Assembly: GCF_024223415.1 (NCBI RefSeq)
Contig: NZ_CP100500.1
DNA from: Escherichia coli
Lineage (GTDB): Bacteria > Pseudomonadota > Gammaproteobacteria > Enterobacterales > Enterobacteriaceae
Length of the DNA stretch: 64,000 nucleotides
Reading direction: 5' to 3' (one strand)
Position 1 is the stretch's first letter. Each line of letters begins with the position of its first letter. Position numbers and translations under genes: made by a program. Positions 41,075 to 44,983 of this stretch are shown one piece after another. The notes below the pieces were generated by a model, which saw nothing but the letters and a program-made list of their open reading frames with translations, did not search any database and had not been told where the DNA came from.

Positions 41075-44000
41075 ATGGGTAAAGGCAGCAGTAAGGGGCA
41101 TACCCCGCGCGAAGCGAAGGACAACCTGAAGTCCACGCAGTTGCTGAGTGTGATCGATGTCATCAGCGAAGGGCCGATACAAGGACCGGTGGATGGATTA
41201 AAAAGCGTGCTGCTGAACGGTACGCCGGTGCTGGACAGTGAGGGGAATACCAATATATCCGGCGTCACGGTGGTATTCCGGGCCGGTGAGCAGGAGCAGA
41301 CGCCGCCGGAGGGATTTGAATCCTCCGGCTCCGAGACGGTGCTGGGTACGGAAGTGAAGTACGACACGCCGATTACCCGGACCATCACGTCGGCAAACAT
41401 CGACCGTCTGCGCCTGACCTTCGGTGTGCAGGCACTGGTGGAAACCACCTCAAAGGGGGACCGGAATCCGTCGGAAGTCCGCCTGCTGGTTCAGATACAG
41501 CGTAACGGTCGCTGGTTAACGGAAAAAGACATCACCATTAAGGGCAAAACCACCTCGCAGTATCTGGCCCCGGTGGTGGTGGGTAACCTGCCGCCGCGCC
41601 CGTTCAGTATCCGGATGCGCAGGATGACGCCGGACAGCACCACAGACCAGCTGCAGAACAAAACGCTCTGGTCGTCATACACCGAAATCATCGATGTGAA
41701 ACAGTGCTACCCGAACACGGCACTGGTCGGTGTGCAGGTGGATTCGGAGCAGTTCGGCAGCCAGCAGGTGAGCCGTAATTATCATCTTCGCGGGCGTATT
41801 CTGCAGGTGCCGTCGAATTATAACCCGCAGACGCGGCAATACAGCGGTATCTGGGACGGAACGTTTAAACCGGCATACAGCAACAACCCGGCCTGGTGTC
41901 TGTGGGATATGCTGACCCATCCGCGCTACGGCATGGGGAAACGTCTTGGTGCGGCGGATGTGGATAAATGGGCGCTGTATGTCATCGGCCAGTACTGCGA
42001 CCAGTCAGTGCCGGACGGCTCTGGTGGCACGGAGCCGCGCATCACCTGTAATGCCTGGCTGACCAGGCAGCGTAAGGCGTGGGATGTGCTCAGTGATTTC
42101 TGCTCGGCGATGCGCTGTATGCCGGTATGGAACGGGCAGACGCTGACGTTCGTGCAGGACCGACCGTCGGATAAGGTGTGGACCTATAACCGCAGTAATG
42201 TGGTGATGCCGGATGATGGCGCGCCGTTCCGCTACAGCTTCAGCGCCCTGAAGGACCGCCATAATGCCGTTGAGGTGAACTGGAGTGACCCGAATAACGG
42301 CCAGGAGACGGCGACAGAGCTTGTGGAGGACACGCAGGCCATTGCCCGTTACGGTCGTAACGTCACGAAGATGGATGCCTTTGGCTGTACCAGCCGGGGG
42401 CAGGCACACCGCGCCGGGCTGTGGCTGATTAAAACGGAGCTGCTGGAGACGCAGACCGTGGACTTCAGCGTGGGTGCTGAAGGGCTTCGCCATGTACCGG
42501 GCGATGTCATTGAAATCTGTGATGATGACTATGCCGGTATCAGCACCGGTGGTCGTGTGCTGGCGGTGAACAGCCAGACCCGGACGCTGACGCTCGACCG
42601 TGAAATCACGCTGCCATCCTCCGGTACCACGCTGATAAGTCTGGTTGACGGAAGTGGCAATCCGGTCAGCGTGGAGGTTCAGTCCGTCACCGACGGCGTG
42701 AAGGTGAAAGTGAGCCGGGTTCCTGACGGCGTTGCCGAGTACAGCGTGTGGGGGCTGAAGCTGCCGACGCTGCGCCAGCGCCTGTTCCGCTGCGTGAGTA
42801 TCCGTGAGAACGACGACGGCACGTATGCCATCACTGCCGTGCAGCATGTACCGGAAAAAGAGGCCATCGTGGATAACGGGGCGCACTTTGACGGCGACCA
42901 GAGCGGAACGGTGAATGGTGTCACGCCGCCAGCAGTACAGCACCTGACCGCAGAAGTCACCGCAGACAGCGGGGAATATCAGGTGCTGGCGCGCTGGGAC
43001 ACGCCGAAGGTGGTGAAGGGCGTGAGCTTCCTGCTTCGCCTGACCGTGGCCGCGGATGACGGCAGTGAGCGGCTGGTCAGCACGGCCCGGACGACGGAAA
43101 CCACATACCGCTTCAGGCAGCTGGCGCCGGGGAACTACAGGCTGACAGTCCGGGCAGTAAATTCCCGGGGGCAGCAGGGAGACCCGGCGTCGGTATCGTT
43201 CCGGATTGCCGCACCGGCAGCGCCGTCGCGGATTGAGCTGACGCCGGGCTATTTTCAGATAACCGCCACGCCGCATCTTGCCGTTTATGACCCGACGGTA
43301 CAGTTTGAGTTCTGGTTCTCGGAAACGCGGATTACCGATATCAGGCAGGTTGAAACCACAGCCCGCTATCTTGGCACGGCGCTGTACTGGATAGCCGCCA
43401 GTATCAATATTAAGCCGGGCCATGATTATTATTTTTACGTTCGCAGTGTGAACACTGTCGGTAAATCGGCATTCGTGGAGGCAGTCGGTCGGGCGAGCGA
43501 TGATGCCGAAGGTTACCTGGATTTTTTCAGGGGGGCGATAAATAAAACGCATCTGGGACGGGAGATCAATGAACGCATTGATGCCTCTGCACGGCGCACT
43601 GAAGTTGAGCAACTGGAGAATGAGATTAACCGCGAAATGACGCAGCTGGAGAAAGATGTGAGGCAGCGTGCGGAGCGTGATATCGCCGGGGTGACGAAAA
43701 AAATCACGGCGTCTGAAAACAGCATAACGGAACTGGTGGCGAAAAAGAGCGGTGAACAGTCGCTGGCCATTGCGAAAGTCGACAGGAAAGTTGACAGCGT
43801 GAGCAGTGAAATCCGGCAGACAGTGAGCAGGAGCACGGAGGAGAACAGCCGACAGATAGCGCAGGTCAGGCAGTATGTTGATGATAAAAGTGCGCAAATA
43901 AGTACTGTTGTGGCGAAAAAGAGCGCTGAACAGTCAATGGCCATTGCGGAAGTTGACAGAAAAGTTGACAGGATGGGAAGCGAAATCCGGCAGACAGTAA

Positions 44001-44983
44001 GCAGGAGCACGGAGGAGAACAGCCGACAGATAGCGCAGATCAGACAGTATGTTGATGATAAGGGAAGTCAGATCAAACAGAGCACGGATAAAAAACTGGG
44101 ATCCTGGAATGCCAGCATTGAGCAGATACAGAAAGTTCAGGAGGACACGCGCCGGAACCTGAACAGCATGTGGGCTGTGAAGCTGCAGCAGACACGGGAT
44201 GGACGTCTCTATATTGCAGGTATTGGTGCCGGAATCGAAAATACGTCTGACGGAATTCAGAGTCAGATCCTGATGCAGGCAGATCGTATTGCGATGATTA
44301 ACCCGGAAAATGGCAATACAACACCTTTGTTTGTGGCTCAGGGTGATCAGCTGTTCATGAATGATGTTTTCATGAAGCGACTGTTTGCGGTGAGTATCAC
44401 CTCATCCGGCAATCCCCCGGCATTTTCCCTGACACCGGACGGGCGTCTGACGGCGAAAAATGCCGATATCAGTGGTAACGTGAATGCGAATTCGGGCTCG
44501 CTCAACAACGTCACGATTAACGAGAACTGTCGGGTTCTGGGAAAACTGTCTGCCAGCCAGATTGAAGGCGACCTGGTGAAGACTGTGGGGAAAGCCTTTC
44601 CCCGTAATAACAGCTATGCCAGTGGCACGATAACCGTCACTGTTTACGATGATCAGGGATTCGACCGGCAGATTATCATTCCCCCGGTGCTTTTTCGCGG
44701 GATGAAACATCAGAATTTCAACAGTAAGAACCAACAGTCATACTGGTATTCAACCTGTAAACTGCAGGTACTGAAGAACGGACAGGAAATCTTTCATGAG
44801 CCCGCGACAGATGTCAGCAGGGTATTTTCATCGGTGATTGATATGCCCGCGGGATACGGGAATGTCACCCTGACGTTCAATGTTTCTTCATATGGTGCAA
44901 ATAACTGGACGCCAACAACCAGTATCAGTGACCTTCTTGTTGTTGTGATGAAGAAAGCCACTGCAGGCATCACGATTAGCTGA
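41075..44983 (+). CDS. J: host specificity protein gpJ (tail tip/central fiber), with internal tandem duplication
   Basis: 1302 aa; lambda gpJ-like N-terminal 1000 aa; a ~57 aa coiled-coil segment is tandemly duplicated (nt ~43735-44080). Confidence 0.9.

What the first reader, a model, noticed from the sequence alone, without database searches (positions are those of the whole stretch)
43735..44080. Tandem duplication of a ~57 aa coiled-coil unit inside the J tail-tip protein
[20 protein letters not shown]...[14 protein letters not shown] is repeated almost exactly. Together with the longer-than-lambda length (1302 aa), this suggests the distal, receptor-proximal part of J has been remodelled, which may change host range.
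Basis: seen in the sequence. Interest (0 to 1): 0.4.

Follow-up and report, generated by a model that had tools for sequence, protein, structure and literature searches.

The report
Duplicated helical spacer in phage tail-tip fibre
The tail-tip protein J of this E. coli prophage carries two tandem copies of a 58-residue alpha-helical module that makes the stalk of its central fibre about four times longer than in phage lambda; related prophages carry one, two or three copies, so the module changes fibre length rather than which receptor is recognised.

Summary
J (41075-44983, 1302 aa) contains a tandem repeat of 174 nt (58 aa, not 57): unit A at 43736-43909 and unit B at 43910-44083. The first 152 nt are 91% identical.

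The repeat is not in the receptor-binding end. It lies in the alpha-helical shaft between the second FNIII domain and the beta-prism fibre, at the point where lambda J has 2-3 residues (838-841). J is 95% identical to lambda over residues 1-836, then has a 174-aa insertion. The C-terminus is of a different type, 77% identical to the OmpC-using "A8" gpJ.

AlphaFold2 predicts one continuous helix over aa 826-1033. Its hydrophobic seam has period 3.625 (58/16), not the heptad 3.5, and the phase is constant across both junctions. Adding or removing a unit would therefore keep the core in register.

In complete E. coli genomes, 21 loci have two copies and two have three (A-A-B). A diverged lineage, including the sequenced phage PhiR49_2, has one. 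The same units occur with three different distal ends.

The F-pyocin/T1 alpha-to-beta switch motif is absent here, although both positive controls show it. The most likely reading is a length-tunable rigid spacer, adding roughly 8.6 nm per unit. It is a modest new variant of a known protein.

The parts
41075..44983 (+). J gene (tip attachment protein / central tail fibre), 1302 aa, intact ORF
   Evidence: ORF list. Pfam matches: FNIII-A_GpJ, Phage-tail_3, Ig_J, Ig_J_second, Phage_Tail_Tip, Ig_GpJ_C. 95% identical to lambda J over aa 1-836. Matches PDB 8iyk.
43220..43528 (+). FNIII-2 (Ig_J_second, aa 716-818), the last domain before the shaft
   Evidence: Pfam PF24489, E 1.1e-39.
43550..44173 (+). 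Predicted continuous alpha-helix (aa 826-1033, 208 residues), an expanded alpha-helical shaft. The lambda counterpart is residues 809-861.
   Evidence: AlphaFold2 single-sequence model gives one helix with pLDDT above 90 over most of it. Hydrophobic period is 3.625, power 4.29 against a shuffle maximum of 2.03 (0 of 2000). The insert has no Pro.
43589..44110 (+). 174-aa segment (aa 839-1012) with no counterpart in lambda J. It is inserted between lambda residues 838 and 841.
   Evidence: phmmer alignments to 8iyk, 8xcj and 9wca.
43613..43645 (+). 11-aa module [11 protein letters not shown]. It is absent in phage PhiR49_2, single here, and doubled in L002 and L005-L008.
   Evidence: Shaft comparisons.
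43736..43909 (+). Repeat unit A (aa 888-945)
43910..44083 (+). Repeat unit B (aa 946-1003). Its last 7 codons run into the ancestral downstream junction TDKKLGSW.
   Evidence: The downstream junction is shared with single-copy orthologues.
44117..44500 (+). Central straight fibre / beta-prism (Phage_Tail_Tip, aa 1015-1142)
   Evidence: Pfam PF09327. Aligns to lambda 842-980.
44609..44980 (+). C-terminal Ig-like receptor-binding domain (aa 1179-1302), A8/OmpC-like allele
   Evidence: Pfam PF12421. Best PDB match is 9wca 'A8 gpJ 713'. 77% identical over the last 152 aa to an A8-type natural sequence. A8 uses OmpC (PMC11338833).

Best explanation
The feature is an in-frame tandem duplication of a 58-residue module inside the alpha-helical shaft of the J central tail fibre. 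This shaft is the three-helix bundle that, in lambda, links the FNIII-2 domains closing the tail tip to the beta-prism fibre and the receptor-binding domain.

Shown here:
- The shaft is 224 aa (GYL...MWAVK) against 54 aa in lambda.
- It is predicted to be one uninterrupted helix of about 208 residues.
- Its hydrophobic seam has period 3.625 (= 58/16), a heptad/hendecad mix rather than a canonical heptad coiled coil. The phase is the same before, within and after the repeats.
- A 58-aa unit is therefore exactly 16 helical turns, and an 11-aa unit is about 3 turns. Either can be added or removed without breaking the core.
- In complete genomes the copy number is 2 or 3. A diverged lineage has 1.
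- The extra unit of the three-copy alleles is a near-identical copy of unit A.

Inferred:
- Copy number changes by unequal homologous recombination or replication slippage between units.
- Each unit lengthens a rigid trimeric shaft by about 8.6 nm (58 x 0.148 nm). The OmpC-type receptor-binding domain would then sit about 26 nm further from the tail tip than in a lambda-length fibre.
- Because the shaft lacks the small-residue motif needed for the F-pyocin-type helix-to-prism switch, it most likely acts as a passive, length-tunable spacer that sets how far the fibre reaches through O-antigen or capsule. It is probably neither a receptor-specificity determinant nor an energy store.
For: Repeat and reading frame.
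Position relative to lambda domains: with the domain definitions of Ge et al. 2024 (PMC11101478).
Continuous helix. The insert has no Pro and 5 Gly in 174 aa.
Periodicity and phase: peak at 3.625, power 4.29, 0 of 2000 shuffles reach it, power at 3.5 is 0.01, and the phase is 43-60 degrees in all four segments.
Shaft length series among close relatives: 54 aa (lambda), 82 (L003), 155 (phage PhiR49_2), 224 (window), 235 (L005, L007, L008), 293 (L002, L006). These differ by combinations of 11 and 58 aa.
Unit types: A and B are stable across genomes, and the third unit in L002 and L006 is 0-1 nt from unit A.
Both units are under purifying selection: dN/dS 0.22.
The units combine with three different distal ends.
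The fold-switch motif SxSxxMxxLxS (He et al. 2026, PMC12874032) is not enriched: 2 observed against 1.9 expected, p=0.56. It is enriched in the positive controls: T1 gp33 12 against 1.7, F2 pyocin 6 against 1.9, gp24 of PDB 23gd 4 against 1.0.
T1 gp33 independently carries two exact 33-aa repeats at period 3.67, which is 9 turns.
A sequenced phage whose recorded host is E. coli ECOR13 (PhiR49_2) carries the long shaft with one unit.
Against: - No trimer model could be made. AlphaFold2 was run on a monomer without an alignment, so oligomeric state and rigidity are inferred from lambda, T1 and F-pyocin structures.
- The exact 3.625 peak is partly forced by the 58-aa repetition, because harmonics of 58 are favoured. 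Single units peak at 3.57-3.61.
- No experiment links shaft length to adsorption or host range. With five or so loci I saw no co-variation between J copy number and side-fibre length.
- Two copies is by far the commonest state, which could be a founder effect and not selection.
- The one-copy 'AB' and three-copy 'A-BA-B' alleles come only from 2-3 kb draft contigs. They could be assembly-graph artefacts through the 39-nt identical core and not real recombinants.
Confidence: 0.6

Rival explanations
1. Neutral length polymorphism. The repeat is a recombination-prone stretch of a tolerant helical linker. Copy number drifts between 1 and 3 with no effect on infection.
For: The same units occur with three different distal ends and with or without the 11-aa duplication, so no coupling to a receptor type is visible. 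Only 22 of 5426 complete genomes carry the units, and nearly all loci have two copies, which fits a young clonal allele.
Against: Both units have been kept under purifying selection since an old duplication: dS 0.29, dN/dS 0.22. All three independent indel lengths seen in such shafts (58, 11, and 33 in T1) are whole numbers of helical turns. This shows a structural filter, though not an adaptive value for length itself.
Confidence: 0.25
2. Metastable spring. As in the F7/F2 pyocin central fibre, the long coiled coil converts to a beta-prism on receptor binding, and the energy released opens the tip. Extra units would add stored energy.
For: Lambda's own shaft partly converts to beta strands at residues 841-861 (PMC11101478). 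A 163-residue coiled coil switches in the F7 pyocin, and similar switches are predicted for many siphophage fibres (PMC12874032). Sister alleles with the same units (L002, L005-L008) end in a T1/F-pyocin-like C-terminus: blastp E 1.7e-23 to T1 gp33, and T1 gp33 to F2 pyocin E 4.6e-24. HMMER aligns the units to the T1 shaft.
Against: The motif reported as required for switching is at chance level in the window shaft, while it is enriched in T1, F2 and gp24. At the positions aligned to T1's small 'S' residues the unit has E, N and Q (read by eye from the alignment). He et al. report that Gln at such positions blocks the switch. Ala is 8% here against 15-23% in the controls.
Confidence: 0.1
3. 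One reading: the duplication remodels the receptor-proximal end of J and thereby changes receptor specificity.
For: The C-terminal half of J does differ from lambda (54% identity). Its receptor-binding domain is of the OmpC-using A8 type.
Against: The repeat ends 176 residues before the receptor-binding domain, in a different structural module. A8-type domains also occur on lambda-length shafts (P0052, P0054). The units also occur with two other distal ends.
Confidence: 0.04
4. Docking platform. The extra shaft length provides binding sites for side fibres or accessory proteins, as in F-pyocins where side fibres attach to the coiled coil.
For: In the F2 pyocin the side fibres dock on the central coiled-coil shaft (bioRxiv 10.64898/2026.02.24.707460).
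Against: The neighbouring side-fibre gene (45042-46847) has the lambda-type N-terminal domain PF08400. In Ur-lambda this domain attaches at the gpV/gpM collar, not to J (PMC12617516). No extra small genes follow J in the window.
Confidence: 0.03
5. Assembly or sequencing artefact that duplicated a segment.
For: None specific to this window. Repeats of this size do break short-read assemblies, and many database entries are fragments ending in the repeat.
Against: The two units differ at 30 of 174 nt in a pattern reproduced in 21 independent complete genomes.
Confidence: 0.01

Closest known systems
Phage lambda gpJ (PDB 8iyk, 8xcg, 8xcj): alpha-helical shaft (AHS), residues 809-861
   Same: Same protein family and same gene order (H-M-L-K-I-J-stf). 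95% identical over aa 1-836, covering the hub and FNIII domains. The shaft occupies the same position between FNIII-2 and the beta-prism fibre. The flanks of the insertion align to lambda 801-838 and 841-890.
   Different: The shaft is 224 aa against 54 aa and contains tandem 58-aa and 11-aa modules. The fibre and receptor-binding domain are only 54% identical to lambda's. The predicted receptor type is OmpC-like rather than LamB.
Phage T1 gp33 central fibre (PDB 9l9p) and related N15/HK022-type J proteins
   Same: Long helical shaft after FNIII-2 with non-heptad periodicity (3.67 against 3.625 here). It has its own tandem repeats (two exact 33-aa units, 9 turns). HMMER aligns the window's units and fibre to T1 residues 910-1104 (E 6e-10).
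   Different: T1's shaft carries the SxSxxMxxLxS fold-switch motif (12 matches against 1.7 expected) and is Ala-rich. The window's shaft does not and is not. T1 ends in a short C-terminus followed by separate small proteins, whereas the window J ends in a lambda-type Ig domain. Sister alleles L002 and L005-L008 do have the T1-like end.
F-type pyocin central fibre proteins (F7: PMC12874032; F2/PA0641: PDB 25vf)
   Same: J-like hub followed by FNIII domains, a trimeric coiled-coil shaft of about 165-175 residues, then a beta-prism. The shaft length is comparable to the window's.
   Different: The pyocin shaft is mostly heptad-based, docks the side fibres, and switches to a beta-prism. The window shaft has period 3.625 and lacks the switch motif. 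Beyond residue 696 there is no detectable sequence similarity to the window J.
gpJ chimera A8 (Brodel et al. 2024, PMC11338833; PDB 9wca/9wcb)
   Same: The receptor-binding domain type: 72% identity over 288 aa and 77% over the last 152 aa.
   Different: A8 sits on a lambda-length shaft with no repeat units. Its receptor (OmpC) was determined experimentally, while the window's is only inferred.

Membership tests
Lambda-type tip attachment protein J (TipJ / central tail fibre) | N-terminal hub domains and FNIII-A | tested here: met
   PF13550 E 8.5e-41 and PF24801 E 3.5e-39. 95% identity to lambda J over aa 1-836.
Lambda-type tip attachment protein J (TipJ / central tail fibre) | Two consecutive FNIII/Ig domains before the fibre | tested here: met
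   PF24421 (aa 610-714) and PF24489 (aa 716-818).
Lambda-type tip attachment protein J (TipJ / central tail fibre) | Helical shaft, then central straight fibre (DUF1983), then C-terminal Ig-like receptor-binding domain | tested here: met
   Helix aa 826-1033. PF09327 aa 1015-1142 and PF12421 aa 1179-1302. The shaft is about four times the lambda length.
Lambda-type tip attachment protein J (TipJ / central tail fibre) | Gene position after tape measure, M, L, K and I and before the side fibre | tested here: met
   TMP at 36117-38696. Lambda_tail_I at 40367-41014 and phage_tail_N side fibre at 45042-46847. Homologous loci carry the same annotation.
Lambda-type tip attachment protein J (TipJ / central tail fibre) | Trimer at the tail tip of a virion | not testable with these tools
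   Inferred from the lambda structures.
Fold-switching coiled-coil central fibres (F7 pyocin type, He et al. 2026) | Long helical segment between FNIII-2 and a beta-prism seed | tested here: met
   208-residue predicted helix followed by the PF09327 prism.
Fold-switching coiled-coil central fibres (F7 pyocin type, He et al. 2026) | Repeated SxSxxMxxLxS pattern (small residues at S positions) along the helix | tested here: not met
   2 full matches against 1.9 expected, p=0.56. Controls: T1 12 against 1.7 (p<0.001), F2 pyocin 6 against 1.9 (p=0.007), gp24 4 against 1.0 (p=0.018).
Fold-switching coiled-coil central fibres (F7 pyocin type, He et al. 2026) | C-terminal region homologous to the pyocin/T1 fibre end | tested here: not met
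   F2 pyocin (25vf) aligns only to aa 4-696 of the window J. The window ends in a lambda-type Ig domain. Sister alleles L002 and L005-L008 do meet this feature.
Fold-switching coiled-coil central fibres (F7 pyocin type, He et al. 2026) | Helix-to-prism conversion on receptor binding | not testable with these tools
   Requires trimer conformational sampling or cryo-EM.
Canonical heptad coiled coil | Hydrophobic periodicity of 3.5 residues | tested here: not met
   Power 0.01 at 3.5 against 4.29 at 3.625.
Non-heptad (hendecad-type) helical bundle | Hydrophobic periodicity of 3.6-3.67 with a continuous phase | tested here: met
   Peak at 3.625, 0 of 2000 shuffles reach it, phase 43-60 degrees in four segments. 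T1 comparator peaks at 3.67.
OmpC-binding gpJ receptor-binding domain (A8 type) | Sequence similarity of the C-terminal Ig domain to A8 | tested here: met
   phmmer E 2.9e-149 to 9wca. 77% identity over the last 152 aa to an A8-type natural sequence.
OmpC-binding gpJ receptor-binding domain (A8 type) | Uses OmpC as receptor | not testable with these tools
   Shown only for A8 itself (PMC11338833). At 77% identity the receptor could differ.

The most novel reading that the evidence does not exclude
The shaft of J may be a modular 'reach ruler' built from units that are whole numbers of helical turns: 58 aa is 16 turns and 11 aa is 3 turns. Prophages would lengthen or shorten it by unequal recombination to match the thickness of the host's O-antigen or capsule layer, independently of which receptor domain is attached. 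On a hub that is 95% lambda, the natural series of 54, 82, 155, 224, 235 and 293 aa would also be a ready-made test of how the receptor-binding signal travels through the shaft to open the tail tip. It would further test whether a long shaft lacking the switch motif is a locked-helix derivative of the fold-switching T1/F-pyocin shaft.
Probability: 0.2. Interest if true: 0.6.

Novelty: new variant of a known kind. Interest (0 to 1): 0.35.

Why it matters
How a non-contractile tail passes the receptor-binding signal from the fibre tip to the closed tail tip is an active question. Lambda's short shaft flips and partly refolds, and F-pyocin shafts refold completely. This allele places a four-fold longer shaft, lacking the switch motif, on an almost unchanged lambda hub, and close relatives differ by whole units. 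That gives a natural length series for testing signal transmission and reach through surface polysaccharides.

There is also a practical use. Lambda particles with swapped gpJ ends are being engineered for DNA delivery (the A8 chimera), and shaft length is an additional parameter that could be tuned.

One technical point: the repeat breaks short-read assemblies, so J alleles of this kind are mostly fragments in databases.

Tried and rejected
- Sequence search of the insertion alone against PDB chains found no solved homologue apart from the flanks. Only the longer query that included the fibre aligned to T1 gp33.
- Megablast against 50,697 phage records found no phage with the two-copy form. 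tblastn found only PhiR49_2 and PhiR40_1, with a 55%-identical single unit.
- The exhaustive search of 1.84 billion representative proteins with the shaft returned 29 hits. They were mostly fragments of the same E. coli alleles, plus compositional matches to unrelated repeat proteins. Among those, P0145 is spurious, P0148 and P0150 have 11-residue repeats, and P0149 has a 28-aa heptad repeat. The module is narrowly distributed.
- The one-copy 'AB' and three-copy 'A-BA-B' alleles looked like reciprocal products of unequal crossover. I downgraded this. They come only from 2.3-3.4 kb draft contigs, and the same mosaics would arise from mis-traversing an assembly-graph loop through the 39-nt identical core. 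No complete genome has them.
- Linking three copies of the segment with flexible linkers to force a 'trimer' in AlphaFold2 was considered and not run, because the linkers would bias the result towards antiparallel packing.
- Literature searches for earlier descriptions of repeat copy number in J shafts found nothing relevant. This is not proof of absence, because subscription journals are not covered.
- Co-variation between J copy number and side-fibre length: five to seven loci show no pattern, which is too few to conclude anything.
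Full report
**1. The observation**

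The window encodes a 1302-aa protein at 41075-44983 (+). Tandem Repeats Finder reports a 174-nt period at 43736-44061 with 1.9 copies, 90% matches and score 554. The repeat finder gives 43736-43887 against 43910-44061 at 91% identity.

In frame these are two 58-aa units:
- Unit A: aa 888-945, nt 43736-43909.
- Unit B: aa 946-1003, nt 43910-44083.

The first 51 codons are conserved and the last 7 are diverged. The units differ at 30 of 174 nt. Over codons 1-51, dS is 0.29 and dN/dS is 0.22. The duplication is therefore old, and both copies have remained under purifying selection.

**2. What the protein is and where the repeat sits**

Pfam finds every domain of lambda J in order: FNIII-A, Phage-tail_3, Ig_J, Ig_J_second, Phage_Tail_Tip (DUF1983) and the C-terminal receptor-binding Ig domain. 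The gene follows the tape measure and tail assembly protein I and precedes a side-fibre gene.

Comparison with lambda J:
- Residues 1-836 are 95% identical to lambda J.
- Residues 839-1012 have no counterpart. Lambda goes from residue 838 to 841.
- Residues 1012-1301 align to lambda 841-1131 at 54% identity.

Ge et al. (PMC11101478) define lambda residues 809-861 as the alpha-helical shaft. This is a three-helix bundle that clamps the three FNIII-2 domains from below. On LamB binding it flips by about 180 degrees, and residues 841-861 become beta strands. The 174-aa insertion, which includes both repeat units, lies exactly between the upper helix (809-840) and the lower helix (841-861) of that shaft. 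It is therefore in the proximal part of the fibre and not next to the receptor.

**3. The receptor-binding end is a separate matter**

The best structural relative of the C-terminus is PDB 9wca, 'A8 gpJ 713'. A8 is a lambda chimera carrying the C-terminus of a natural E. coli prophage J, and it uses OmpC instead of LamB (Brodel et al. 2024, PMC11338833). The window's last 152 residues are 77% identical to an A8-type natural sequence. OmpC is thus a reasonable but untested guess for the receptor. A8-type ends also occur on lambda-length shafts (P0052 and P0054).

**4. Structure of the insertion**

- The insert has no proline and five glycines in 174 aa.
- AlphaFold2, run on a single sequence as a monomer, predicts one helix from aa 826 to 1033, with pLDDT above 90 over most of it.
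- The hydrophobic pattern has a single strong period at 3.625 residues. Its power is 4.29 against a maximum of 2.03 in 2000 shuffles, and there is no power at 3.5.
- The phase of the seam is 43-60 degrees in the pre-repeat segment, unit A, unit B and the post-repeat segment. The seam therefore runs straight through both junctions.
- 58 residues is 16.0 turns at this period, and 11 residues is 3.03 turns.
- The two halves of a unit share 10 of 29 residues (6 of 20,000 shuffles reach this). This suggests an older 29-aa (8-turn) unit.

Caveat: a 58-aa repeat favours harmonics of 58 in the spectrum. Single units on their own peak at 3.57-3.61.

**5. Relatives and copy number**

Twenty-two of 5426 complete E. 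coli genomes carry unit A at 97.7% identity or more, with 64 unit copies in total. Twenty-one have the A-B pair as in the window.

Two complete genomes, AR_0085 and ECCNB12-2 (L002 and L006), have three units, A-A-B. The extra A is 0-1 nt from the first.

An 11-aa module (LENxINREMTQ) is absent, single or double, independently of the unit count.

A lineage with units about 55-60% identical has a single unit. It includes the sequenced phages PhiR49_2 and PhiR40_1 (host recorded as E. coli ECOR13) and a protein cluster with 1362 members.

Shaft lengths (GYL...MWAVK) form this series:

| Source | Shaft length (aa) |
|---|---|
| lambda | 54 |
| L003 | 82 |
| PhiR49_2 | 155 |
| window | 224 |
| L005, L007, L008 | 235 |
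| L002, L006 | 293 |

The same units are joined to three distal ends:
- the A8-like Ig domain,
- a second Ig allele ('DSRAPERWPSG'),
- a short T1/N15-like C-terminus followed by two small ORFs.

Draft assemblies also contain a one-unit 'AB' mosaic and a three-unit 'A-BA-B' form. At the nucleotide level these are exact mosaics that switch within the identical core. They are what unequal crossover would produce. They are equally what mis-traversal of an assembly-graph loop would produce, and they occur only on 2-3 kb contigs. I treat them as unconfirmed.

**6. Mechanism**

Shown: the duplication is in frame, lies within a long predicted helix, preserves the phase of the seam, varies in copy number between complete genomes, and is uncoupled from the receptor domain.

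Inferred: unequal homologous recombination or slippage changes the copy number. Each unit adds about 8.6 nm to a rigid trimeric shaft. The whole insertion adds about 26 nm relative to a lambda-length shaft of about 8 nm.

For context, in lambda the fibre bound to its receptor holds the tail about 17 nm above the surface (PMC12617516). O-polysaccharide blocks J-mediated access to outer-membrane proteins in lambda and Gifsy-1 (PMC12312913). A longer stalk would plausibly change reach through such layers, but this is a hypothesis.

**7. The fold-switch alternative**

He et al. (PMC12874032) show that a 163-residue coiled coil in the F7 pyocin central fibre converts to a beta-prism. They predict the same for many siphophage fibres and define a required pattern, SxSxxMxxLxS. 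Gln at the small-residue 'S' positions blocks the switch.

T1 gp33 is homologous to the F2 pyocin fibre end (E 4.6e-24). HMMER also aligns it to the window's units. I scanned for the pattern in both orientations against shuffles:

| Sequence | Observed | Expected | p |
|---|---|---|---|
| T1 gp33 | 12 | 1.7 | <0.001 |
| F2 pyocin | 6 | 1.9 | 0.007 |
| gp24 (PDB 23gd) | 4 | 1.0 | 0.018 |
| window shaft | 2 | 1.9 | 0.56 |

The window shaft is 8% Ala against 15-23% in the controls. At positions aligned to T1's small residues it has E, N or Q (read by eye from the alignment). By this criterion the window's units are not of the switching kind. The rival is kept at low probability because the criterion comes from one preprint and no trimer modelling was possible.

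**8. Comparison with known proteins, and novelty**

This is a member of the lambda J family, and all testable defining features are met. Its shaft resembles those of T1 and the F-pyocins in length. It resembles T1's shaft in its non-heptad periodicity and in having tandem repeats: T1 has two exact 33-aa units at period 3.67.

What I did not find described is a tandem-unit shaft on a lambda-type J with copy-number differences between prophages, or the observation that the unit lengths are whole numbers of helical turns. I rate it a new variant of a known kind, of moderate interest.

**9. Verdict**

The best explanation is a length-tunable helical spacer. Confidence is about 0.9 for the anatomy and about 0.4 for the functional role, giving about 0.6 overall.

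Noticed in passing
window 45042-46847 (repeats at 45507-46000): The side tail fibre gene next to J (601 aa, PF08400 N-terminal domain) contains collagen-like Gly-X-Y repeats with a 45-nt period and about 10 copies. Homologues beside related J genes are 442-604 aa, so the side fibre is also length-variable through repeats.
   Followed up: partly
window 44984-45041: Only 58 nt separate J from the side-fibre gene, and there is no lom gene. Lambda, PhiR49_2, L001 and L003 all have lom at this position.
   Followed up: no
window 47876-49285: A 469-aa protein with a YadA-like trimeric autotransporter anchor (PF03895) lies directly after the DUF4376 gene (46862-47437) that follows the side fibre. It looks like prophage cargo and may be an Eib-like adhesin.
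   Followed up: no
window 4672-5985 to about 49800; tRNAs at 20686-20839: The J gene lies in a lambda-like prophage. The prophage runs from a tyrosine integrase (minus strand) through a DnaB-like helicase, terminase gpA and the tape measure to the fibre genes. It sits near the trp operon (trpA at 53718-54524). tRNA-Met and tRNA-Lys genes lie inside the prophage.
   Followed up: partly
L002, L005-L008 (e.g. L002:6885-7771): Sister J alleles with the same 58-aa units end in a short T1/N15-like C-terminus and are followed by two small ORFs of 74 and 220 aa. The larger is weakly similar to T1 gp31 (E 4e-6). The receptor-binding function may lie in these separate proteins.
   Followed up: partly
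L001:7405-10017; L002:8072-10687; L006:6589-8174: IS66-family and IS256-family elements have inserted in or just after the J/stf region in several related prophages. They truncate J (L001) or the side fibre (L002, L006). Many of these prophage fibre modules are therefore defective.
   Followed up: no
L009:25043-28561 (phage T1 gp33, aa 917-982): T1's central fibre protein contains two exact tandem 33-aa repeats (…IREVIATETEALSREIDQLKAQIGDDIQASLTD…) in a shaft with hydrophobic period 3.67. The passages of the T1 structure paper that I read did not mention the repeat.
   Followed up: partly
P0020, P0052, P0054, P0151 (database proteins): Single-member clusters show other in-frame duplications within J: part of FNIII-2, a 27-aa stretch of the shaft, and part of the beta-prism. 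They may be real or may be misassemblies of multi-prophage genomes.
   Followed up: no
window 42005-43897 (minus strand): A 630-aa ORF with a TTG start lies antisense to J, and another lies at 43513-44010. They are most likely by-products of the codon composition of J. No evidence of a gene was sought.
   Followed up: no
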